A stretch of 64,000 bases of DNA from Escherichia phage LH01: sequence record PP434429, one strand, 5' to 3'. How positions within the stretch are numbered: the stretch's first letter is position 1; each line of letters opens with the position of its first letter. Shown here piece by piece: positions 2,520-11,244 of the stretch. Position numbers and translations under genes: made by a program. The notes under the pieces are model-generated. The model was given only the letters and a program-made list of their open reading frames with translations. It did no database searches and was not told the origin of the DNA.

Positions 2520-2840
2520 TTACGCTGTGAAGATTTTATCCCACATCGCAACAACTGCATCTCGGTTATACTTCTTCCATACCGCTTCAGCACGTTTAAC
2601 TCGAGCTTCGTATGTGTCAGTGAATTCTAATACAGCTTTTGTGTAAAGCGCAACTACTTCTTTCTTAGGAGTAGAGGAATCAATTTCTACACGCACAGTA
2701 TCTGGGTCGTATTCGAATGTCGCATGAGGATAATCCTTAAAAACTAACTGGATTACAGGGACACCTTTAGAGATGGCTTCAATAGAACTATTCTCTACCG
2801 TACCTGTGTCAGGACACGTATTGATAAGTGCTTTAGCTGT
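2520..2840 (-). pseudogene. C-terminal glycosyltransferase fragment in alternate frame (continuation of 2795..3619)
   Basis: 106 sense codons ending at TAA 2520-2522 with no ATG/GTG/TTG near the 5' end; encodes ...VENSSIEAISKGVPVIQLVF..., a GT-B C-terminal signature; overlaps the upstream ORF in a different frame over about 2798-2840. Confidence 0.5.
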
Positions 2841-3619
2841 TTAAGACGTTCCATGATTTCACTGTGTGGAGCATCAATAATAACAGGATACTTAGCCGGT
2901 GGTGCCCATTTACTAGGACAGTATCCTACACCATTTTCGCCTAGTGCTTTAATCGCTTCAAGAGCAACATCAGTACGACGCATTTTAGTGTCATAACGTT
3001 GTGCACTAATAATCAGATCAGTCGCCGGAAGAACTTCAGGTTTATCATTCAAACAAATAACCGGATAATCTTCGGCTTCAAACAACGGATTTGCTCGCCA
3101 ATAATCATAATCAATTTTGTCAGTCAGACCTGAAGTCATATAACAATATTTGCGTTCAAATTCACGGAAGGCTTTAGTAGGAGCATAACTCTTACCACCG
3201 TTCTTATGAATTTGAATAGTCTGGTCCCAAATTTGAACAATGCCACGAGACACCGGTTCAAATGGTGTTGCCATAAAATTCTTATGAACTTTAGAGAGAC
3301 CCGCGTCTTTAATTGCCTGAACGGTTAGTTTGGTCGGTTCCATTGTAACAACGAAATCGTACTCATTAATGCCGGCTAGTTCAACAATCTTACGAGCCAT
3401 AGTATAACTCATACCTAGACTGAATTTAGTCAGATGACCAACAGGATGATGATTAACCTTCCAGTCACCAAACGTGTCATTATCAAAGCCGATATAATCA
3501 ATATCAGCACCGATGGACACAAGATATTTCAATACATTTAAATGTACTGCTTCAAGACCACCTTGTACACGTTCTGGGTTAAATGGGACTGCGCGAGATG
3601 GGATAAACATAACTTTCAT
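2795..3619 (-). CDS. glycosyltransferase-like protein, N-terminal portion of a frame-interrupted gene
   Basis: 274-aa ORF, ATG at 3619; Rossmann-like half typical of GT-B enzymes; frame terminates at TAG 2795 while the C-terminal GT motif continues in another frame. Confidence 0.55.
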   Translation of the reverse strand: MKVMFIPSRAVPFNPERVQGGLEAVHLNVLKYLVSIGADIDYIGFDNDTFGDWKVNHHPVGHLTKFSLGMSYTMARKIVELAGINEYDFVVTMEPTKLTVQAIKDAGLSKVHKNFMATPFEPVSRGIVQIWDQTIQIHKNGGKSYAPTKAFREFERKYCYMTSGLTDKIDYDYWRANPLFEAEDYPVICLNDKPEVLPATDLIISAQRYDTKMRRTDVALEAIKALGENGVGYCPSKWAPPAKYPVIIDAPHSEIMERLKQLKHLSIRVLTQVR

Positions 3620-3663: not shown

Positions 3664-5479
3664 AGGACATCCATTCTTTACGAAGTTCTGAATCATCACC
3701 CATCAGCATTTCAAAGAGTTCTTTCCAATTTTCAGGAAGTTTAACTACGTCGTACACAGGGTTCTGAATCATTTCACGATACTCTGACTTTTCAAGGGAG
3801 CCTAATCCCTTGATGTATCGAATACTATGCTTAGGCAGTGTATCTTTAACTTCTTCATACTCAGCTACAGTATAAAACCATTTTTGAGTTTTGCCAATTT
3901 GTGCAATAATTACAGGTGTTTTAACAAAGCGAATACGTCCTTGTTCAAACAATTCAGGCCAATTACTAAAGAAAGCAAGCAAAGCAGGATAAATACTTCC
4001 AAGACCGTCATGATCGGCATCAGTCATAATTGCAATATTACGATAGTTCGTATTCTCTGCCTTTTCACCAAGAATAAGACCCGTGATAGCACAGATATCA
4101 AAGAGCTCTTTGTTCTTCATCATATCAGCATATGACATACCCCAGCTATTCATCACCTTACCACGTAATGGGAATCCGCCGTGTAGTTCACGGTCACGAA
4201 CATCAATGAGATAACCAATTGCCGAATCACCTTCTGTTAAAAACAATGTCGTATCTGCATCTTTACCACATTGGTTAGCTTTAATATGCTTATGAACCTT
4301 AGCTTTAGTTGCCTTTTTAGCTGCTTTAGTTTCTGCAGCCTTTTCTGCCGCCAATTTACGAGCTAATGCTGCTTCAACAATAGGCATAATCAAGGCTTCA
4401 TTTTTAAGAAGTGCCTGAGCAATTTTCTTAGCATCTAATTGGATATGATTACGAATATCACCATACGTTGACGTTAAACGTTCTTTAGTCTGGGAATCAA
4501 AACGCATGTTGCTCATGTCTCTAATAAACATCAACATTGTGAGACATTCTTTAACACGAGCTTTAGTGACTTCAATACCCTTATATTTCTTTTTAATACC
4601 CGGCAAAAGATGTTCGCAGATATCGTCCATTACACATTCAACATGATGTCCACCATTTTTAGTATGGATGTTATTCACATAAGTTAAATGACGGAAGCCA
4701 TCTGGTGATGTTGTGAATGCTATAGAGACTTTATCATTTTCTTGAATGATGTTATCTTCACCAAATTGTTTAGCAAATCGTTTAAAATTACCATCGACCT
4801 TTTTACCATTAAATGTGAACTTGATATCAGGATAAACGACTGCCAATGTTTGAAGTCGGTCTAAAGTAATATCTAAATAAATTTGAGATAAATTATGATC
4901 TTCAAATGAAGTGAAATCAGGAGTGAAGATTACTTTAGTGCCTTTACCTTTAGATTTCTTAGAAGACCATGATTTGTTTTCCATTCCGTTTGAACAGTTA
5001 ACAGTGATTTCATTTTCGCCATCTGACGTGATGCCTGTAAACAACGTAGAGAAGATATTAGTCAAACTACTCCCGACGCCGTTCATACCACCAGTCTTGC
5101 GTTCAGAGTCATCGCCAAAGTTACCACCAGCTTTTGGAATAGTCCAGGCTGCTACAGGACCAGGAATTTGTTCACCTGTTTGGTCGGTAACTAAACCTTG
5201 AGGAATACCACGTCCGTTATCTTCCACCGAAACTTGATTATTTTTAATTTGCACATCAATTTTATTTGCAAACTTAAATGATGTACGAATAGCTTCATCA
5301 ACCGAGTTGTCAATAATCTCATCGATTAATTTAACCAGACCAGGAACATATTCAACTTGTTGATATTTACCAAACAAAAAACGCTCATGTGCTTCTTTAG
5401 CAGAAGAACCAATATACATGCCACTACGTTTCTTAATATGTTCTACATCTGACAGTACCTTAATTTCATTTTTAATCAT
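3662..5479 (-). CDS. 39: DNA topoisomerase II large subunit (GyrB-like ATPase), single continuous ORF
   Basis: 605-aa ORF; GHKL ATPase and GyrB-type motifs (DNGRGIP, GGMNGVGSS); AGGAG RBS before ATG 5479; the size equals T4 gp39 plus gp60. Confidence 0.9.
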   Translation of the reverse strand: MIKNEIKVLSDVEHIKKRSGMYIGSSAKEAHERFLFGKYQQVEYVPGLVKLIDEIIDNSVDEAIRTSFKFANKIDVQIKNNQVSVEDNGRGIPQGLVTDQTGEQIPGPVAAWTIPKAGGNFGDDSERKTGGMNGVGSSLTNIFSTLFTGITSDGENEITVNCSNGMENKSWSSKKSKGKGTKVIFTPDFTSFEDHNLSQIYLDITLDRLQTLAVVYPDIKFTFNGKKVDGNFKRFAKQFGEDNIIQENDKVSIAFTTSPDGFRHLTYVNNIHTKNGGHHVECVMDDICEHLLPGIKKKYKGIEVTKARVKECLTMLMFIRDMSNMRFDSQTKERLTSTYGDIRNHIQLDAKKIAQALLKNEALIMPIVEAALARKLAAEKAAETKAAKKATKAKVHKHIKANQCGKDADTTLFLTEGDSAIGYLIDVRDRELHGGFPLRGKVMNSWGMSYADMMKNKELFDICAITGLILGEKAENTNYRNIAIMTDADHDGLGSIYPALLAFFSNWPELFEQGRIRFVKTPVIIAQIGKTQKWFYTVAEYEEVKDTLPKHSIRYIKGLGSLEKSEYREMIQNPVYDVVKLPENWKELFEMLMGDDSELRKEWMS

Positions 5480-5542: not shown

Positions 5543-5965
5543 TTATTTAAATTTAATTTTCTGAAGTGCATCAATTGCAGCCAAACGCCCTTGTTCACTT
5601 TTAACTGTAATGACCACATCGCCTGATACGATCACCGAACCATCAACAAATTCTATAGAGCCTTTTTTGAAATCGACAGCTGTATCTGGTTCCGGAACTT
5701 CTTCAAAGAATTTAAATTCTGCACCATAAAGCAGAATATCACCTTGCATACTAATGATTGTACGTCCAGGTCCATCGGTTTCAGCGGCAATCATTGAAAC
5801 ACCGTAGCCAATCATCTCTTCTACAATAAAATCTCTTGATAATAAAACCGTATGCAGAGTAGTGTTAAGACGTTTACCAGTCGTATTAAGAATTCTCAAG
5901 AAATTATCTTCCTGTCCTTTGATAATACGATATTTCTTACCAACTTCAAAACCTTTAAAAGCCAT
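5543..5965 (-). CDS. hypothetical protein (syntenic with T4 goF/comC-alpha position)
   Basis: 140-aa ORF with ATG start directly upstream of gene 39; no diagnostic motif recognised. Confidence 0.5.
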   Translation of the reverse strand: MAFKGFEVGKKYRIIKGQEDNFLRILNTTGKRLNTTLHTVLLSRDFIVEEMIGYGVSMIAAETDGPGRTIISMQGDILLYGAEFKFFEEVPEPDTAVDFKKGSIEFVDGSVIVSGDVVITVKSEQGRLAAIDALQKIKFK

Positions 5966-5967
5966 AA

Positions 5968-6147
5968 TTAACCCTTCTTAAGTAAGTCGTAAAAACCACC
6001 GTTCACATGTTTAGGAGCAGAAACCCGACGAGTAGACAGACGATGACATTCAGGGCAAACATCGTTTTCTCGTTCAGAAATCCTTTTAATTTTTTCATAT
6101 TCATGACCACAATCTTCAGATTGGCATTTATAGTCGTATAACGGCAT
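5968..6147 (-). CDS. FmdB-type zinc-ribbon small protein
   Basis: 59-aa ORF below the track threshold: MPLYDYKCQSEDCGHEYEKIK...CPECH; two CxxC pairs and the MP-x-Y-x-Y-x-C N-terminus typical of FmdB-family zinc ribbons. Confidence 0.5.
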   Translation of the reverse strand: MPLYDYKCQSEDCGHEYEKIKRISERENDVCPECHRLSTRRVSAPKHVNGGFYDLLKKG

Positions 6148-6149
6148 TA

Positions 6150-6560
6150 TTATTCCTTAAAATGTGCTTTCAACATTTGATACAAAGACCATGCCTGGTC
6201 GTTATTTTCGATAGTAATTGTCATCACCGGAAATTCAGACAATTCGCCAAGTTCACCAGAATCTTGCTCTTCGGACGCTTGATACGGATTTCCCACTTCA
6301 TCAAAAAACTCTGCTTCACTAGTAGAGAGCCAGATAAAGTTTTCATCAAGGATATCACCGCCTGTTGCGTATCCAACCATGCCAGTAGATGTCACAATTT
6401 TAGTAGGACGTCCAAGATGGTCAACATCTAATACTTTAAATGGTTCCATGCCAAGACGTCGTGCATAAATCCCATTATCAGTGTGGTCTTTAATAAACTC
6501 TTCTTGGGCACGTTTATCTTTAAATTGGTACCATGAATTAACGCGGAATTTATTAGCCAT
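6150..6560 (-). CDS. hypothetical protein
   Basis: ORF 6150..6578; ATG for MANKF at 6560 overlaps the stop of the upstream gene (TAATG). Confidence 0.5.
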
Positions 6561-6787: not shown

Positions 6788-6815
6788 AATATTCTCCTCT
6801 TGTTTTGATAGGTCT

Positions 6816-6844
6816 ATAGTATCATAGACCATAGTTGTTGTACA
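6816..6844 (-). promoter_or_regulatory. early-type promoter (-35 TGTACA, 17-nt spacer, -10 TACTAT)
   Basis: motif read on the minus strand between the 6845..7369 stop and the 6787 start. Confidence 0.45.
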
Positions 6845-7369
6845 TCATTTTAGCAAAATAAAATCAACTTGTTCTGCCAATGAACGTCTAAACATTAATT
6901 GACAACTTCCGAGGATGAAATCAGGTGCTTCATAGACCGCGATGTAGTATCCTTTAGCTTTCAAGAGTTCAACATCCACTTGGTCATCAAACCATGCATA
7001 AACCGCATCAACACTTTCAAATCCAAAATAGAACCCTTGAGCCCAATCTTCACTCAATTCAAATGTGTGCTCAATTCTATAGTATCTTAAGATATTTTGT
7101 TCAAGGAGTTTGTCTTCATTTACTGTAGGACGATTAGGGACATTATAGTTGTCGCCGTGATGGTAGAAGTTACCTGAGAGTATTCCATGTTTATCAAGGA
7201 ACTCCCATGTTTCTTCAGAGTTGTCGGTGCCTGACCAACCGTACGGCGAGCGAGGTTCTTTATTCCAAGAGGTTTCCCAAATTCTGACGGCTTTACCGTC
7301 TTCGATAGCAATTCCTGGTAATGATTCACGTTGAGTACAAAAACTACGTTCTACGCGGTAAACTAACAT
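6845..7369 (-). CDS. hypothetical protein
   Basis: 174-aa ORF, ATG at 7369 with AGGAG RBS 7 nt upstream. Confidence 0.55.
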   Translation of the reverse strand: MLVYRVERSFCTQRESLPGIAIEDGKAVRIWETSWNKEPRSPYGWSGTDNSEETWEFLDKHGILSGNFYHHGDNYNVPNRPTVNEDKLLEQNILRYYRIEHTFELSEDWAQGFYFGFESVDAVYAWFDDQVDVELLKAKGYYIAVYEAPDFILGSCQLMFRRSLAEQVDFILLK

Positions 7370-7395
7370 ATTATTCTCCTCTGGTTGATATGGTT

Positions 7396-7424
7396 ATAAT
7401 ATCAAAACCGGAGGAGAAGTAAAC
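7396..7424 (-). promoter_or_regulatory. early-type promoter (-35 GTTTAC, -10 TATTAT)
   Basis: GTTTAC, 17 nt, TATTAT on the minus strand about 25 nt upstream of the 7369 ATG. Confidence 0.45.
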
Positions 7425-7428
7425 AACT

Positions 7429-7848
7429 TTATGCGAAAGCAGCTGGGCTATATTTTTTAATTTGGAATTCAGGAACTACCATGAACTGACCAGCGAAAAC
7501 GATGTTATAAAGCTTAACACCATCTTCTACCCAACGGTCGCTAATAAATCCGGCGATTTGCTTAGTTTTCCATGGCGATCCATCAGTTGCCGCAGCAATA
7601 GTGAATTCATGGTCTTTTTCAACAGAAACTGATCTGCATAGTCCCCATTTGAACGCTTTTTCTTCTGGCTCAATGAACTGGCTTGAGACGTAGCCAATAT
7701 TACCATTAGCATCACGAACTTTAACTTGGTTACGACCAAAAACAGGATCACTCACAGAAAGAACTTCAACCAACTTCCCGGCAACTTTAGAGCGAGAAGC
7801 AACAGATACATATACGTAATCACCTGTAGAGAGATTTACAATATTCAT
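7429..7848 (-). CDS. hypothetical protein, member of a tandem paralog family (copy 1)
   Basis: 139-aa ORF; C-terminal motif GFISDRWVEDGVKLYNIVFAGQFMVVPE shared with the next two genes. Confidence 0.6.
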   Translation of the reverse strand: MNIVNLSTGDYVYVSVASRSKVAGKLVEVLSVSDPVFGRNQVKVRDANGNIGYVSSQFIEPEEKAFKWGLCRSVSVEKDHEFTIAAATDGSPWKTKQIAGFISDRWVEDGVKLYNIVFAGQFMVVPEFQIKKYSPAAFA

Positions 7849-7857
7849 AATAATTCC

Positions 7858-8313
7858 TTAAGCTTTACGAGGAGACACATAGCGAGTGATTTCAGATTCT
7901 TCAACAACTCGGAAGTCACCTAAGAATACAATATTGTATAGCTTTTTATCATCTTCAACCCATTGGTCGCTGATGAAGCCGCACATAGTATCAGTTTTGC
8001 TTGGATAACCGTATTCATCGATGAAGTCAAATTCTTTATCAGTCTGGAATTCAACACCTTTACACAAGGCCCATTTGAACTGTACATTAGGTTCAGTAGA
8101 AGCAAAATGAGCGCTCACATGAGTTTCCAAGAATTTAGGACTTACGTAAGCGTACTGAGTTTCAGTTTTTCCAGAACTAGGAATGATTCGAACTTTAACT
8201 TCTTTAACACGACCAGTACCATTAGTACGAAGTCCTACCACTTCAACTAGACGACCTGCAGCTTTAGAACGAGATGCAGACGATACACGCTTAATTTCAC
8301 CAATATTAATCAT
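7858..8313 (-). CDS. hypothetical protein, tandem paralog family (copy 2)
   Basis: start taken at internal ATG (MINIGEIKRV) with AGAG RBS; shares the SASRSKxAG..LVEV N-terminus and GFISDQWVEDDKKLYNIVFLGDF C-terminus with copy 1. Confidence 0.6.
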   Translation of the reverse strand: MINIGEIKRVSSASRSKAAGRLVEVVGLRTNGTGRVKEVKVRIIPSSGKTETQYAYVSPKFLETHVSAHFASTEPNVQFKWALCKGVEFQTDKEFDFIDEYGYPSKTDTMCGFISDQWVEDDKKLYNIVFLGDFRVVEESEITRYVSPRKA

Positions 8314-8343
8314 ATTTTTTCTCTCTTTGTTTAAGTTGAATTC

Positions 8344-8372
8344 ATTATACTCCAACCATCCTTGGTTGTACA
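8344..8372 (-). promoter_or_regulatory. promoter/stem-loop cassette, copy 1 (-35 TTGTACA, CAACCA/TGGTTG hairpin, -10 TATAAT)
   Basis: contains the 25-nt motif tatactccaaccatccttggttgta also present near 8903, 51088 and 52108. Confidence 0.5.
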
Positions 8373-8375
8373 ACA

Positions 8376-8870
8376 TTAATTAAGGATATTAACCACAGCA
8401 CTACGTGGAACTACACTAAAATCACCTGCATGAACAACGTTCAGAAGTTCAACACCGTCTTCAATCCATTGGTCAGTTACCCATCCATTTACTGGACCAG
8501 CGAATAGGCGTCGAATTGAAACATATTTACACAACAAATCAGTAGGCTCAATAGGCTTAATCAGAGTACCGTACATACAAGCGATATCCATATCAATACA
8601 GATATCTTTAACGGGTTCTACTTCTTCAATCAACAGTTCAAAGTCGGTGCTTGGAAGGGCGGTAGTAGAAATTGTACCATATGAATTTTTAATTTCTAAG
8701 AATAACCAAGGGCCTTCAACTTGTTTGATGAAGTTAACAATAGTGAAACTATTACCTTGAGTGGCACCTAAAATTTCACAAAACTTTTCATAAGCTCGCA
8801 CTGAAGCACCGTACCAGTTGATTTGTTTTTCATCTTTCAGGATGTAAGTAGCCGTGGTATTGATATTCAT
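8376..8870 (-). CDS. hypothetical protein, tandem paralog family (copy 3, divergent)
   Basis: start taken at internal ATG (MNINTTA) with RBS; C-terminal WVTDQWIEDGVELLNVVHAGDFSVVP resembles copies 1-2. Confidence 0.55.
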   Translation of the reverse strand: MNINTTATYILKDEKQINWYGASVRAYEKFCEILGATQGNSFTIVNFIKQVEGPWLFLEIKNSYGTISTTALPSTDFELLIEEVEPVKDICIDMDIACMYGTLIKPIEPTDLLCKYVSIRRLFAGPVNGWVTDQWIEDGVELLNVVHAGDFSVVPRSAVVNILN

Positions 8871-8900
8871 AATGTTTTCCTGTTTGGTTAAGATAGAAAG

Positions 8901-8930
8901 ATTATACTCCAACCATCCTTGGTTGTAAAC
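8901..8930 (-). promoter_or_regulatory. promoter/stem-loop cassette, copy 2 (-35 GTTTACA, hairpin, -10 TATAAT)
   Basis: same 25-nt core as 8346-8370, located between the dexA stop and the 8870 start. Confidence 0.5.
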
Positions 8931-8935
8931 TGGTT

Positions 8936-9613
8936 TTATCGCTGTTTTACACTTAACGGGTCAGGATTCTCAGGGACATCTTCAAGGCCAAGCGCATAAC
9001 GCTGAGCATATTTTAACATCAAAATATCTTTAGCACAATCATGAACACTATCATGGGCAATGAATCCTTTTAGCGTACCCATTGGTAACGGACACATACT
9101 TAATCCTCGTGTCAACGAGTAAGCTTCGATTGCCGTACGAATATCACGTTGAGCCCAGAATTTAACCGGTTCTAATTTATCAGTATCAATATCTGGTTCA
9201 AGAACACCTTCATCACGATAGAGGTCACGAATCAAATCGACCAAGATCGGGAAGTCAAAGCTCATACCACGGCACCACATCTGTGATTTCCATTGGTCAA
9301 CTTTATTAGCTCGACAATAATCTAAAAAGATTTTAATGCCTTCAAGCGTAGTGACATCGTCTTCAGACGGAGCCAGGTTTTTACGTGCTTCTGCAGATTG
9401 TTCTTTCCACCATTTCATAGTGGATTTAGCGAAAACTCGCTTCCCTTTCTGAGAAGCTAAATTAAATTTAATTCGCTTACCTCGTTGAACAAGTTCTTCG
9501 AATGATTCAACAATTTCAGGGTCCGAATTATATGCAATAACCGCAAGGTCAATAACAGCAGCTTTTGACGTATTGCCGAATGTTTCAAAATCTATAATAA
9601 CATCAGTGCTCAT
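8936..9613 (-). CDS. dexA: exonuclease A (DnaQ-like 3'-5' exonuclease)
   Basis: 225-aa ORF; N-terminal DFETFG exo I motif; size and position next to dda as in T4. Confidence 0.75.
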   Translation of the reverse strand: MSTDVIIDFETFGNTSKAAVIDLAVIAYNSDPEIVESFEELVQRGKRIKFNLASQKGKRVFAKSTMKWWKEQSAEARKNLAPSEDDVTTLEGIKIFLDYCRANKVDQWKSQMWCRGMSFDFPILVDLIRDLYRDEGVLEPDIDTDKLEPVKFWAQRDIRTAIEAYSLTRGLSMCPLPMGTLKGFIAHDSVHDCAKDILMLKYAQRYALGLEDVPENPDPLSVKQR

Positions 9614-9622
9614 AATTTTCTC

Positions 9623-10936
9623 TCAAATAAAATGGACGTCAAAACGACCACGAGTTGTGCCGACATATAATAACTGTTTAGCTAATTCTGAATCAGCATA
9701 ATGGATGCACGGTGTATAAACAAAGGCCGTGTCAACAGACATACCCTGAGCCTTATGGAAGGTTGATACTGGTAGTGCCTTCACCTTAGTGAACATACGT
9801 TTAGCATCCCAGAATTCACTCCATGGAGCTTTACCACCTTTATTCCAGAATTTGTATGTTTCTGCAGTCTTAGCCAAAAACAAATTGAATTTATAAAGCT
9901 CTTCTTCAGAAGAAATAACCTTTATATCTTCGCGGACGTATTCTTCATCATCGCCATATGTTTCTACTGTAAGATTCCAGTATCGTATCATATATTCGCC
10001 TGAAACACCACGTGCTTTAACAAATGTAGACGTTTCTACAGCATCTCGAATACGAACGAATTGCCCGTTATTGAAAAGCATTTCGGTCATATTTTTGCCA
10101 TCTAGCTTATATGTCTTAGTAAGTGGCTCTTGTAGAACAATGACTTCGTCTTTAATAAATGGCTTTTCTGTTTCAAAAAGTTTTCGGCGAATAATTGAAT
10201 TCAACTTGTCCACCGACTTATTTGTGAATGCCATCATTCGATTTTCGAAAAGGTCTTCAGGAGTTTTAACGATGTTAAAATAGTTCATCATATACGATTT
10301 AAGGTCTGTATATCCGTGAACACCGTGTCCATCAACTACTTTATCGTAAATCCATTTGCCATTACGAATATCAGTCGCAACATCAATAATTGGTGCATTG
10401 CTACGTTTAACTTCTGTAAGGTTGCATTGCACGAAGTCTTTGTGAGTGAAGAAAGGACTTAGATACGCAGTTGATTCGCCTGGGTCTACCGGTCGAATCT
10501 GGCATCGGTCGCCGATTCCAATTACTGTACACCATTTAGGGATACTAGCTAACATTATTTTAAACAGAGAACGGTCGCACATTGACGCTTCATCAAATAA
10601 CAGTACACGACACAAGGCTAAGTCGGGAACCTTTTTCTGTTCAAACAATACGTTTTCTTCGTATGTAGTTGGGTTGATTTTAAGAATGCTATGAATAGTC
10701 GATGCTTCTTGACCCGCAAGTTTGCTTAGAACCTTTTTAGCAGCATGTGTAGGGGCTGCTAAAATAATACCTGATTCTCCAGAAGAAATAAGGGCTTCAA
10801 CGATGAATCTAGTAAGGGTTGTTTTACCTGTACCAGCAGGCCCATTAATAGTTACGTGATGTTTCTTTTCTTTAATAGCTTTCATAACAACGTTGAAGGC
10901 GTTTTTCTGGCCTTCGGTCAAATCATCAAATGTCAT
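9623..10936 (-). CDS. dda: Dda DNA helicase (SF1B)
   Basis: 437-aa ORF; Walker A GPAGTGKTT, Walker B LLFDEASM; ATG overlaps the upstream stop (ATGA). Confidence 0.85.
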   Translation of the reverse strand: MTFDDLTEGQKNAFNVVMKAIKEKKHHVTINGPAGTGKTTLTRFIVEALISSGESGIILAAPTHAAKKVLSKLAGQEASTIHSILKINPTTYEENVLFEQKKVPDLALCRVLLFDEASMCDRSLFKIMLASIPKWCTVIGIGDRCQIRPVDPGESTAYLSPFFTHKDFVQCNLTEVKRSNAPIIDVATDIRNGKWIYDKVVDGHGVHGYTDLKSYMMNYFNIVKTPEDLFENRMMAFTNKSVDKLNSIIRRKLFETEKPFIKDEVIVLQEPLTKTYKLDGKNMTEMLFNNGQFVRIRDAVETSTFVKARGVSGEYMIRYWNLTVETYGDDEEYVREDIKVISSEEELYKFNLFLAKTAETYKFWNKGGKAPWSEFWDAKRMFTKVKALPVSTFHKAQGMSVDTAFVYTPCIHYADSELAKQLLYVGTTRGRFDVHFI

Positions 10937-11244
10937 CGTAAAGTCCCTGCAATTGGAATACTAACAATACGGCCTGTGTCCAGGATTCGTTGATACAATC
11001 TTTGCGTCTCCGCATCTAGTTTAACGTGTTTCATTTCAAGCTTATTAAACCAGAACTTACGCGGAGTTTCGACCATTCTTAGAACTCCCATTTTTAAATC
11101 TGTTTTATACTGTGTTTTCAAAGTATCGAAAACTTTATCTGCAATATCCTTTCTAAAAAATACTGCAGGACGATGCTCATCAAGTGGAACCGGGACAGTA
11201 AATCCTTCCATATCTCGATAAACTATTGCATATACATAAACCAT
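10933..11244 (-). CDS. hypothetical protein (dda.1 position)
   Basis: 103-aa ORF, ATG start; synteny only. Confidence 0.5.
   Translation of the reverse strand: MVYVYAIVYRDMEGFTVPVPLDEHRPAVFFRKDIADKVFDTLKTQYKTDLKMGVLRMVETPRKFWFNKLEMKHVKLDAETQRLYQRILDTGRIVSIPIAGTLR

What the first reader, a model, noticed from the sequence alone, without database searches (positions are those of the whole stretch)
7429..8870. Tandem triplication of a small gene family, each copy with its own promoter
Three consecutive genes (139, about 151 and about 164 aa) share a C-terminal block (GFISD[RQ]WVEDG.KLYNIVF.G.F.VVPE), and copies 1-2 also share an N-terminal SASRSK.AG.LVEV block. Copy 3 has diverged in its N-terminal two thirds. 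Such tandem paralog arrays in T4-type hyperplastic regions often encode host-takeover or anti-defence factors.
Basis: seen in the sequence. Interest (0 to 1): 0.5.

Follow-up and report, generated by a model that had tools for sequence, protein, structure and literature searches.

The report
Known MotB/MotB.1 early-gene cluster
The three neighbouring genes are the already described motB.1, motB and second-motB genes of an RB69-like T4-type phage; they encode small early proteins built around a shared C-terminal domain, so the finding is real but ordinary.

Summary
Three adjacent minus-strand genes share a C-terminal block far beyond chance: 7429-7848 (139 aa), 7858-8313 (151 aa) and 8376-8870 (164 aa). 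Shuffle z-scores are 14-43, and all three pass Pfam PF17613 "motB".

The window is a Mosigvirus, 97-98% identical to sequenced RB69-like phages. Copy 2 is the ortholog of T4 MotB. In T4, MotB is an abundant, toxic, non-specific DNA-binding early protein that alters H-NS binding. Copy 1 is a second MotB found in about 207 of the 759 matching phage records. Copy 3 is the ortholog of T4 MotB.1. Its N-terminal domain is unrelated to that of copies 1 and 2, not a diverged version of it, and it is fused to the MotB-type C-terminal domain.

Patterson-West et al. 2021 already reported this arrangement for RB69: two motB, one motB.1 and a shared C-terminal domain.

"Each copy with its own promoter" is only partly right. 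Copies 3 and 2 have near-identical early promoters. Copy 1 starts 9 nt after copy 2's stop and has none.

By-products:
- The 119-aa T4 reference MotB.1 and the RB69 motB.1 plus 29-aa peptide are frameshift-broken versions of the intact gene seen here.
- The shared domain looks SH3/Tudor-like and is not basic.

The parts
8376..8870 (-). Copy 3 = motB.1 ortholog, intact 164-aa form. It has an acidic (pI 4.5) alpha/beta-barrel N-terminal domain (LSm-like per Kim 2025), a disordered linker (residues 86-107) and a MotB-type C-terminal domain.
   Evidence: ORF. PHROG 2333 E 1e-80. PF17613 37 bits against a cut-off of 25. 37% identity to T4 MotB.1 and 97% to RB69 motB.1. AlphaFold2 pLDDT 78.8, C-terminal domain >90. 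pI. dN/dS 0.08-0.13.
7858..8313 (-). Copy 2 = motB ortholog (151 aa). It has a basic KOW/SH3-like N-terminal domain (net +6), a linker and an acidic C-terminal domain (net -5).
7429..7848 (-). Copy 1 = second MotB paralog (139 aa, RB69 ORF010 type). It has a shorter, uncharged N-terminal domain and linker, and is probably co-transcribed with copy 2.
   Evidence: PF17613 E 5e-21 and PHROG 1671 E 1e-50. 43% identity to copy 2 and 94% to RB69p010. 9-nt gap with an AAGGA ribosome-binding site. 207 phage records at >=80% identity; every such record among the 45 listed has two places. dN/dS 0.04-0.29.
8379..8549 (-). Shared C-terminal domain of copy 3 (residues 108-164).
   Evidence: hhalign probability 98%, E 6e-14. 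Cross-profile hits. Alignment A5.
7861..8079 (-). Shared C-terminal domain of copy 2 (residues 79-151). It carries a ~13-residue insertion relative to MotB.1.
   Evidence: Five strands with a short helix before the last strand, pLDDT >90.
7432..7662 (-). Shared C-terminal domain of copy 1 (residues 63-139).
8901..8929 (-). Early-type promoter of copy 3 (TTTACA, 17 nt, TATAAT).
   Evidence: 11/12 matches. Annotated as a promoter in phage SA79RD. Sequence.
8344..8372 (-). Early-type promoter of copies 2 and 1 (TGTACA, 17 nt, TATAAT). Its spacer is identical to that of the copy 3 promoter.
   Evidence: 10/12 matches..
8307..8370 (.). Direct repeat, first copy (promoter, 5'UTR and start codon). 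The partner is at 8864-8927, 80% identical over 64 nt and sharing an exactly identical stretch of about 27 nt. The two copies flank gene copy 3.
   Evidence: family D1.
8864..8927 (.). Direct repeat, second copy.
7374..7418 (-). Stable hairpin after copy 1 that overlaps the next promoter (7423-7396). Its 3' arm holds the ribosome-binding site GAGGAG of the downstream motB.2-like gene. It is the likely end of the copy 2 - copy 1 transcription unit or an RBS-masking element.
   Evidence: Free energy -19.2 kcal/mol, z -5.0, 0 of 200 shuffles as stable. Annotated as a terminator in SA79RD. Promoter 9/12 with an extended TG.
6845..7369 (-). Downstream neighbour: motB.2-like gene (174 aa). It is not a member of the paralog family.
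   Evidence: 34% identity to T4 MotB.2. PHROG 1106. No hit with the C-terminal-domain profiles.
8936..9613 (-). Upstream neighbour: dexA exonuclease.

Best explanation
The locus is the motB.1 - motB - second-motB early-gene cluster of an RB69-like Mosigvirus. It lies between dexA and motB.2/cef.

Shown here:
- All three proteins have two domains: a small beta-barrel N-terminal domain, a flexible linker and a conserved ~55-75-residue all-beta C-terminal domain.
- Copies 1 and 2 have a KOW/SH3-like N-terminal domain carrying the SRSKxAGxLVEV motif.
- Copy 3 has the unrelated MotB.1-type N-terminal domain.
- Two near-identical T4-early-type promoters drive copy 3 alone and copies 2 and 1 together. 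This predicts expression within the first minute of infection by unmodified host RNA polymerase.
- All three genes are under purifying selection.

Inferred from the T4 ortholog (literature):
- The MotB-type proteins accumulate to high levels and coat host and phage DNA without sequence specificity.
- They change how H-NS/StpA sit on DNA and so de-repress H-NS-silenced genes and compact the nucleoid. This makes the cell a better host, with about a 2-fold gain in burst size.

My own inference:
- The basic N-terminal domain is the main DNA-contacting part. It has net charge +6 in copy 2 and +5 in T4 MotB.
- The shared C-terminal domain is neutral to acidic in every paralog and has SH3/Tudor-like strand order. 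It is more likely a common self-association or partner-binding module than a DNA-binding OB fold.
- Copy 1 has an uncharged N-terminal domain and copy 3 is acidic with a different N-terminal domain. They are sub-functionalised relatives that use the same module.
For: Identity:
- PF17613 scores are above the cut-off for all three genes; PHROG 1671 and 2333 also match.
- Orthology to T4 MotB, T4 MotB.1 and RB69 genes p010, p011 and p013.
- The window is 97-98% identical to annotated Mosigviruses with the same gene order.

Architecture:
- AlphaFold2 models show two confident domains and a disordered linker.
- Homology of the C-terminal domain: probability 98%.

Expression.

Selection: dN/dS 0.04-0.29.

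Charges.

Function of T4 MotB: PMC6070864 (toxicity, burst size, non-specific DNA binding, co-purification with H-NS/StpA) and PMC7827196 (H-NS footprint change, 75 host genes up-regulated, shared C-terminal domain with MotB.1, RB69 with two motB copies). The title of Son et al. 2021 (NAR 49:9229) is cited in PMC12152347.
Against: - No protein from this phage or from RB69 has been tested. Copy 2 is only 48% identical to T4 MotB and is much less basic overall (pI 7.7 against 9.2).
- Copy 1 has no net charge in its N-terminal domain, so DNA binding is not assured.
- The function of MotB.1 is unknown. T4 motB.1 knock-outs had no phenotype, and MotB.1 had no effect in an RNA reporter assay (PMC12152347). 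However, the plasmid-expressed protein in that work was the truncated 119-aa form.
- Promoters are consensus matches, not mapped transcription starts.
Confidence: 0.85

Rival explanations
1. One reading: a recent tandem triplication of one gene, in which copy 3 later diverged in its N-terminal two thirds and each copy kept its own promoter.
For: - The genes are tandem, on the same strand and share a C-terminal block.
- A 64-nt promoter/5'UTR repeat with a period of 557 nt flanks copy 3.
Against: - The N-terminal domain of copy 3 is orthologous to that of T4 MotB.1 (E 3e-22). It has no residual similarity to copies 1 and 2 (z < 0; hhalign aligns only the C-terminal domain).
- T4 has the same MotB/MotB.1 pair, so the split is older than the genera.
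- Copies 1 and 2 are only 43% identical.
- Copy 1 has no promoter.
Confidence: 0.05
2. The shared C-terminal domain is an OB-fold nucleic-acid-binding domain, as proposed from HHpred in Patterson-West 2021. All three proteins would then be DNA/RNA binders through that domain, and the N-terminal domains would add specificity.
For: - PMC7827196 reports HHpred hits of the MotB C-terminal domain to the eIF5A C-terminal OB fold.
- The domain is the most conserved part of the family.
Against: - Net charge of the C-terminal domain is -5 (copy 2), +1 (copy 1), -2 (copy 3) and -3 (T4 MotB.1).
- DSSP shows five strands with a one-turn helix between strands 4 and 5, as in SH3/Tudor barrels.
Confidence: 0.25
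3. The array is an anti-defence set. The paralogs would each neutralise a different host nucleoid or defence protein (H-NS, StpA, Hha or a defence system), and the duplication would be driven by an arms race.
For: - The locus is in a dispensable early region.
- MotB counteracts H-NS, a xenogeneic silencer (PMC7827196).
- Natural mosaics between the paralogs exist.
- Copy 2 has a somewhat higher dN/dS (~0.2) than dda (~0.03).
Against: - No direct MotB-H-NS contact was found without DNA (PMC7827196).
- dN/dS is well below 1 for all copies.
- The copy-1-type gene is 88-99% conserved across ~207 genomes, so it is not hypervariable.
- I did not scan the proteins against PADLOC or any anti-defence library, and no member has a known anti-defence phenotype.
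Confidence: 0.15
4. The shared blocks are chance or low-complexity matches.
For: None.
Against: Shuffle z-scores are 14-43. Profile E-values range from 5e-9 to 2e-29 against E > 0.3 for every other ORF in the window. Pfam scores are above the gathering cut-off.
Confidence: 0

Closest known systems
T4 MotB (NP_049626, Pfam PF17613; Patterson-West 2018, 2021; Son 2021)
   Same: - Copy 2 is 48% identical over its full length and copy 1 is 37% identical.
- Both share the KOW-like N-terminal domain with the SRSKAAGKLVEV motif and the same C-terminal domain.
- Both sit in the same early region next to dexA/cef behind an early promoter.
   Different: - This phage has two MotB-type genes in tandem where T4 has one.
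- Copy 2 is near-neutral overall (pI 7.7 against 9.2).
- Copy 1 lacks about 25 residues of the N-terminal domain and linker and has no net positive charge.
- The gene order differs. Here it is dexA - motB.1 - motB - motB' - motB.2. In T4 it is dexA - motB.2 - motB.1 - motB.
T4 MotB.1 (NP_049627 / P39415; PHROG 2333; LSm-like fold family of Kim et al. 2025)
   Same: - Copy 3 shares the N-terminal domain (37% identity) and the MotB-type C-terminal domain.
- Both proteins are acidic and are encoded immediately upstream of motB.
   Different: - Copy 3 is 164 aa, with a 21-residue insert (DICIDMDIACMYGTLIKP...) in the linker.
- The T4 reference entry is a 119-aa truncation caused by one extra G. 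Re-sequenced T4 genomes encode 143 aa with the full C-terminal domain.
RB69 genes RB69p010, p011 (motB), p012 (29-aa ORF) and p013 (motB.1)
   Same: Same genus and same gene order. Identity is 93-97% for each gene. This arrangement was reported in Patterson-West 2021 as two motB, one motB.1 and a 29-aa peptide.
   Different: In the RB69 reference, motB.1 is split by two 1-nt insertions into a 132-aa ORF and the 29-aa ORF. The window and phages mobillu and SA79RD carry the uninterrupted 164-aa gene.
PeSL cassettes (promoter-early stem-loops; Arbiol 2010, Comeau 2014)
   Same: Near-identical early promoters are repeated on both sides of a small dispensable gene in a plastic early region. The sequence identity is long enough for T4-type homologous recombination.
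   Different: The small hairpin in the spacer of the two repeated promoters is no more stable than in shuffled sequence (z -0.3 and -1.3). No upstream terminator-like stem-loop was seen there. Only the third promoter (7423-7396) overlaps a strong hairpin.

Membership tests
MotB family (Pfam PF17613) | Score above the Pfam gathering cut-off (25 bits) | tested here: met
   Copy 1 scores 75.6 bits, copy 2 scores 132.4 bits and copy 3 scores 37.0 bits, the last over the C-terminal part only.
MotB family (Pfam PF17613) | Conserved C-terminal core G[WFY][IV][ST]DQW[VI]E.G..L.N[IV]V..G...V | tested here: met
   Alignments A1 and A5. hhalign probability 98%.
MotB proper (Category 1 of Patterson-West 2021) | KOW-like N-terminal domain homologous to that of T4 MotB | tested here: met
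MotB proper | Tight non-specific DNA binding, toxicity in E. coli and altered H-NS footprint | not testable with these tools
   Known only for T4 MotB (PMC6070864, PMC7827196).
MotB proper | Early gene behind a sigma-70-type early promoter in the dexA-cef region of Tevenvirinae | tested here: met
   Synteny. Promoter at 8372-8344. The evidence is a consensus match only; no transcript data are available.
MotB.1 (PHROG 2333; Categories 2/4 of Patterson-West 2021) | MotB.1-type N-terminal domain plus MotB-type C-terminal domain, encoded next to motB | tested here: met
   Copy 3 matches PHROG 2333 at E 1e-80 and T4 MotB.1 at E 3e-22. BFVD Foldseek finds T4 P39415 at E 2e-9.
LSm-like fold family (GoF / MotB.1 / Frd.2; Kim 2025) | N-terminal five-stranded bent antiparallel sheet resembling Sm/Hfq | tested here: inconclusive
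PeSL regulatory cassettes | Conserved early promoter joined to a stable stem-loop terminator, repeated around dispensable ORFs | tested here: not met
   The promoter repeat is present, but the stem-loops at the two repeated promoters are not significant. The resemblance is limited to repeated promoters.

The most novel reading that the evidence does not exclude
The conserved C-terminal domain is not a DNA-binding OB fold. It is an SH3/Tudor-like association module through which MotB, the second MotB and the acidic MotB.1 form homo- and hetero-oligomers, or dock on one common host partner. MotB.1 and the second MotB would then tune how MotB coats and bridges DNA.

Heterologous tests of T4 MotB.1 so far used the 119-aa reference-sequence form, which lacks most of this domain. 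Such a role would therefore have been missed.
Probability: 0.2. Interest if true: 0.4.

Novelty: already known. Interest (0 to 1): 0.15.

Why it matters
For the scan, this is a correct detection of a real paralog family that is already in Pfam and PHROGs and is described in the literature for RB69 itself. It adds little new.

Two by-products have practical value for people working on T4 early proteins.
- The reference T4 MotB.1 (119 aa) and the RB69 "29-aa Category 3 peptide" are products of single-base frameshifts in the reference records. The natural protein carries a complete MotB-type C-terminal domain.
- The shared domain is acidic to neutral and looks SH3-like. This argues for re-testing which domain of MotB binds DNA and whether the paralogs interact.

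Tried and rejected
- **PDB sequence search with copy 2.** No meaningful hit; the best was E 1.1.
- **Profile search of the C-terminal domain against 1.84 billion representatives.** Only 36 hits. About 25 are family members of 100-250 aa, and the rest are multi-stretch matches in long proteins that look spurious. No relative with a known function appeared, so this gave no new functional lead.
- **Promoter for copy 1.** I searched for a MotA box (TGCTTtA) and for the late promoter TATAAATA upstream of copy 1 and found none.
- **PeSL-type terminator in the promoter spacers.** The hairpins are no better than in shuffled sequence.
- **dN/dS between the paralogs.** Not attempted, because 43% identity is saturated. 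I computed ortholog dN/dS instead.
- **Son et al. 2021 (PMC8450097).** The paper is not held in the library.
- **ORF 5549-5974 as a MotB.1-type N-terminal-domain relative.** The HMM E-value was 0.03 but hhalign probability was only 2.6%, so this was rejected. It is instead a GoF-family paralog (PHROG 622).
- **Domain-level fold assignment.** Fold searches take whole models and do not report the aligned residues, so I could not assign hits to the N- or C-terminal domain.
Full report
**Where the window comes from**

The stretch 6800-11000 is 97-98% identical over its full length to many sequenced Mosigvirus genomes (RB69-like T4-type phages). Examples are TH12, LF82-4, mobillu and SA79RD. Their annotation gives the same gene order on the minus strand: modA, srd, dda.1, dda (9623-10936), dexA (8936-9613), three "MotB-like / transcriptional regulator" genes, a motB.2-like gene (6845-7369), cef, goF, 39.2 and 39.

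**Observation check**

All three genes are on the minus strand:
- Copy 1: 7429-7848, 139 aa.
- Copy 2: 7858-8313, 151 aa from MINIGEIK. A longer 172-aa ORF reaches 8376.
- Copy 3: 8376-8870, 164 aa.

Similarity between them:
- Copies 1 and 2 align end to end at 43% identity over 145 residues (E 3e-27 at a database size of 1e6). The Smith-Waterman score is 240 against 28.9 +/- 5.0 in 2000 shuffles.
- Copy 3 shares only the C-terminal ~30-50 residues. Scores are 100 and 90 against ~28 +/- 4.6, z 16 and 14, and no shuffle does as well.
- Profile-profile comparison of the two families gives probability 98%, E 6e-14 over 49 columns.
- The block has 15-17 distinct residues in 29, so it is not low-complexity.
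- HMMs of the C-terminal domain find exactly these three ORFs among 1266 six-frame ORFs of the 64-kb window. The next best hit has E > 0.3.

The N-terminal parts of copy 3 and copies 1 and 2 show no similarity at all (z -0.6 and -1.2).

**Promoters**

- Two strong sigma-70/T4-early-type promoters lie on the minus strand. One is at 8929-8901 (TTTACA-17-TATAAT, 11/12) before copy 3. The other is at 8372-8344 (TGTACA-17-TATAAT, 10/12) before the 151-aa start of copy 2.
- They belong to a 64-nt direct repeat (8307-8370 and 8864-8927). The repeat is 80% identical, shares an exactly identical stretch of about 27 nt that covers the whole promoter spacer, and spans promoter, 5'UTR and start codon.
- The second promoter lies inside the 172-aa version of copy 2. 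The N-terminus MINIGEIK also aligns with the T4 MotB N-terminus MIINIGEL. I therefore take 8313 as the start.
- Copy 1 begins 9 nt after the stop of copy 2 with only an AAGGA ribosome-binding site. No sigma-70-like, MotA-box or late-promoter match precedes it. It is most likely co-transcribed with copy 2.
- After copy 1 there is a stable hairpin at 7374-7418 (-19.2 kcal/mol, z -5.0). It overlaps a weaker promoter at 7423-7396. SA79RD annotates the equivalent site as a terminator.
- "Each copy with its own promoter" is thus true for two of the three genes.

**What the genes are**

- All three pass the Pfam gathering cut-off for PF17613 "motB" with 75.6, 132.4 and 37.0 bits against a cut-off of 25.
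- Copies 1 and 2 belong to PHROG 1671 "MotB-like transcriptional regulator". Copy 3 belongs to PHROG 2333 (E 1e-80).
- Copy 2 is 48% identical to T4 MotB and 93% to RB69 MotB.
- Copy 1 is 94% identical to RB69p010 and 37% to T4 MotB.
- Copy 3 is 37% identical over 134 residues to T4 MotB.1 (E 3e-22) and 97% to RB69 motB.1.

The MotB/MotB.1 pair is therefore shared with T4 and predates the genera. Copy 3 is not a diverged MotB. It is a different N-terminal domain joined to the same C-terminal domain.

The copy 1/copy 2 duplication is confined to one clade. tblastn with copy 1 finds 207 phage records at >=80% identity, and every such record among the 45 listed has two matching places. No record falls in the 60-80% band. 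The other 552 records match at <60%, and nearly all of those listed have a single place.

The family is narrow. A profile of the C-terminal domain finds only 36 cluster representatives in 1.84 billion, about 25 of them credible.

**Already published**

Patterson-West et al. 2021 (PMC7827196) describe the following:
- MotB and MotB.1 share a conserved C-terminal domain with different N-terminal domains, possibly through duplication.
- 40 genomes carry both genes.

Kim et al. 2025 (PMC12152347) assign the MotB.1 N-terminal domain to an LSm-like fold family with GoF and Frd.2. The finding is therefore a rediscovery.

**Structure**

- AlphaFold2 on family alignments gives two confident domains joined by a disordered linker in both models. 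Copy 2 has pLDDT 84.8 with the linker at residues 66-75. Copy 3 has pLDDT 78.8 with the linker at residues 86-107. The C-terminal domains are above 90.
- In both models the C-terminal domain has five strands with a one-turn helix between the fourth and fifth. This is the SH3/Tudor order. It is an inference, because the tool does not report which residues were aligned.
- Net charges: copy 2 N-terminal domain +6 and C-terminal domain -5; T4 MotB +5 and +1; copy 1 0 and +1; copy 3 -7 and -2 (pI 4.5).
- The shared domain is thus not basic in any paralog. This argues that DNA binding by MotB resides mainly in the basic KOW-like N-terminal domain, and that the common domain serves association or partner binding. 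That departs from the OB-fold/DNA-binding suggestion in the literature and remains untested.

**Selection and recombination**

- Ortholog comparisons (window, mobillu, SA79RD, RB69) give dN/dS of 0.04-0.29 for copy 1, 0.17-0.27 for copy 2 and 0.08-0.13 for copy 3. For comparison, dda gives 0.02-0.05. All three genes are maintained by purifying selection, with copy 2 the most relaxed.
- Database proteins include natural mosaics:
  - copy-2 sequence switching to copy-1 sequence inside the conserved WVEDG block (P0147);
  - copy-2 N-terminal domain with copy-1 C-terminal domain (P0155);
  - T4-type N-terminal domain with copy-1-type C-terminal domain (P0223).
- Some of these mosaics come from short metagenomic contigs and could be assembly chimeras.

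**Mechanism**

Shown: the family membership, the domain architecture, the promoter arrangement and purifying selection.

Inferred from T4 (PMC6070864, PMC7827196; Son 2021 by title only):
- MotB-type proteins are made from the first minute of infection, become abundant and bind host and phage DNA non-specifically.
- They alter H-NS/StpA-DNA complexes, de-repress part of the H-NS regulon, are toxic when expressed alone and roughly double burst size.
- The role of MotB.1 is unknown.

**By-products**

1. The T4 reference (NC_000866.4 / AF158101.6) has one extra G in motB.1: GGATTGGAAGATGG against GGATT-GAAGATGG in T4T. This ends the ORF at 119 aa (...GWVTDQWIGRWR*). The next frame continues EDGVELLNVVHAGEYSVVPRSAVVAILN.
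   - Thirteen other T4, RB55 and RB59 records encode an uninterrupted 143-aa protein. Only the two reference records need two tblastn pieces.
   - The 143-aa protein is seen on 256 contigs (P0011).
   - Kim et al. had motB.1 synthesised and cite NC_000866.4 as their T4 sequence; they report a 13.8-kDa protein, the size of the 119-aa form. Their expressed MotB.1 therefore lacked most of the shared domain.
2. The RB69 reference motB.1 (132 aa) plus the 29-aa ORF p012, called the "Category 3 peptide", is the same 164-aa gene broken by two single-base insertions. It is intact in the window and in two other Mosigviruses.

**Verdict**

This is a real feature with correct coordinates. It was partly mis-described, being neither a simple triplication nor three promoters. 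It is already known, so interest is low.

Noticed in passing
L003 (T4 NC_000866.4) 2640-2860 minus strand, compared with window 8376-8530: The T4 reference motB.1 (119 aa) is truncated by a single extra G inside the conserved WIEDG block. Thirteen re-sequenced T4, RB55 and RB59 genomes encode an intact 143-aa protein with the full MotB-type C-terminal domain. Published heterologous tests of MotB.1 used the synthesised 119-aa form.
   Followed up: yes
L004 (RB69 NC_004928) 3870-4373 minus strand, compared with window 8376-8870: RB69 motB.1 (132 aa) and the 29-aa ORF RB69p012, treated in the literature as a separate "Category 3" peptide, are one 164-aa gene interrupted by two 1-nt insertions. 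The gene is intact in the window, mobillu and SA79RD.
   Followed up: yes
window 7374-7423 (-): A strong hairpin (-19.2 kcal/mol, z -5) lies between copy 1 and the motB.2-like gene. Its 3' arm contains that gene's ribosome-binding site GAGGAG, and the -10 box (TATTAT) of the local promoter lies in the hairpin's apical part (inner stem and loop). Read-through RNA would mask the ribosome-binding site, while promoter-initiated RNA would not. From my own knowledge, this resembles the classic T4 arrangement described for genes e, soc and 49.
   Followed up: partly
window 8307-8370 and 8864-8927: A 64-nt direct repeat (80% identical, with an exactly identical stretch of about 27 nt covering the promoter spacer) flanks copy 3. 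It is long enough for T4-type homologous recombination to delete or amplify motB.1. It is reminiscent of PeSL cassettes, but the stem-loop is not significant.
   Followed up: partly
proteins P0147, P0155, P0223, P0153: Natural mosaic MotB proteins exist: copy-2 front with copy-1 tail, with a crossover in the conserved block, and T4-type N-terminal domain with copy-1-type C-terminal domain. This suggests recombination between the tandem paralogs. Some come from short contigs and may be assembly chimeras.
   Followed up: partly
window 5549-5974 (-) and 6150-6560 (-): The hypothetical 142-aa ORF next to gene 39 (RB69p005 type) falls in the same PHROG (622) as goF (E 1e-18 and 2e-38). The window therefore holds a second pair of paralogs, two GoF-family genes separated by the zinc-ribbon gene 39.2. 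Similarity to the MotB.1 N-terminal domain was not significant (hhalign probability 2.6%).
   Followed up: partly
proteins P0032, P0033, P0048, P0053 (241-252 aa): Some MotB.1-family proteins carry two N-terminal domains in tandem before the shared C-terminal domain. The domains are joined by a DxDVASMYGTLIKP linker motif that also occurs as the 21-residue insert in copy 3.
   Followed up: no
window 7858-8376 (-): Many database entries annotate copy 2 as 172 aa, starting at an ATG that overlaps the stop of copy 3 (TAATG). The extra 21 codons are the promoter sequence itself, so the 151-aa start is more likely.
   Followed up: partly
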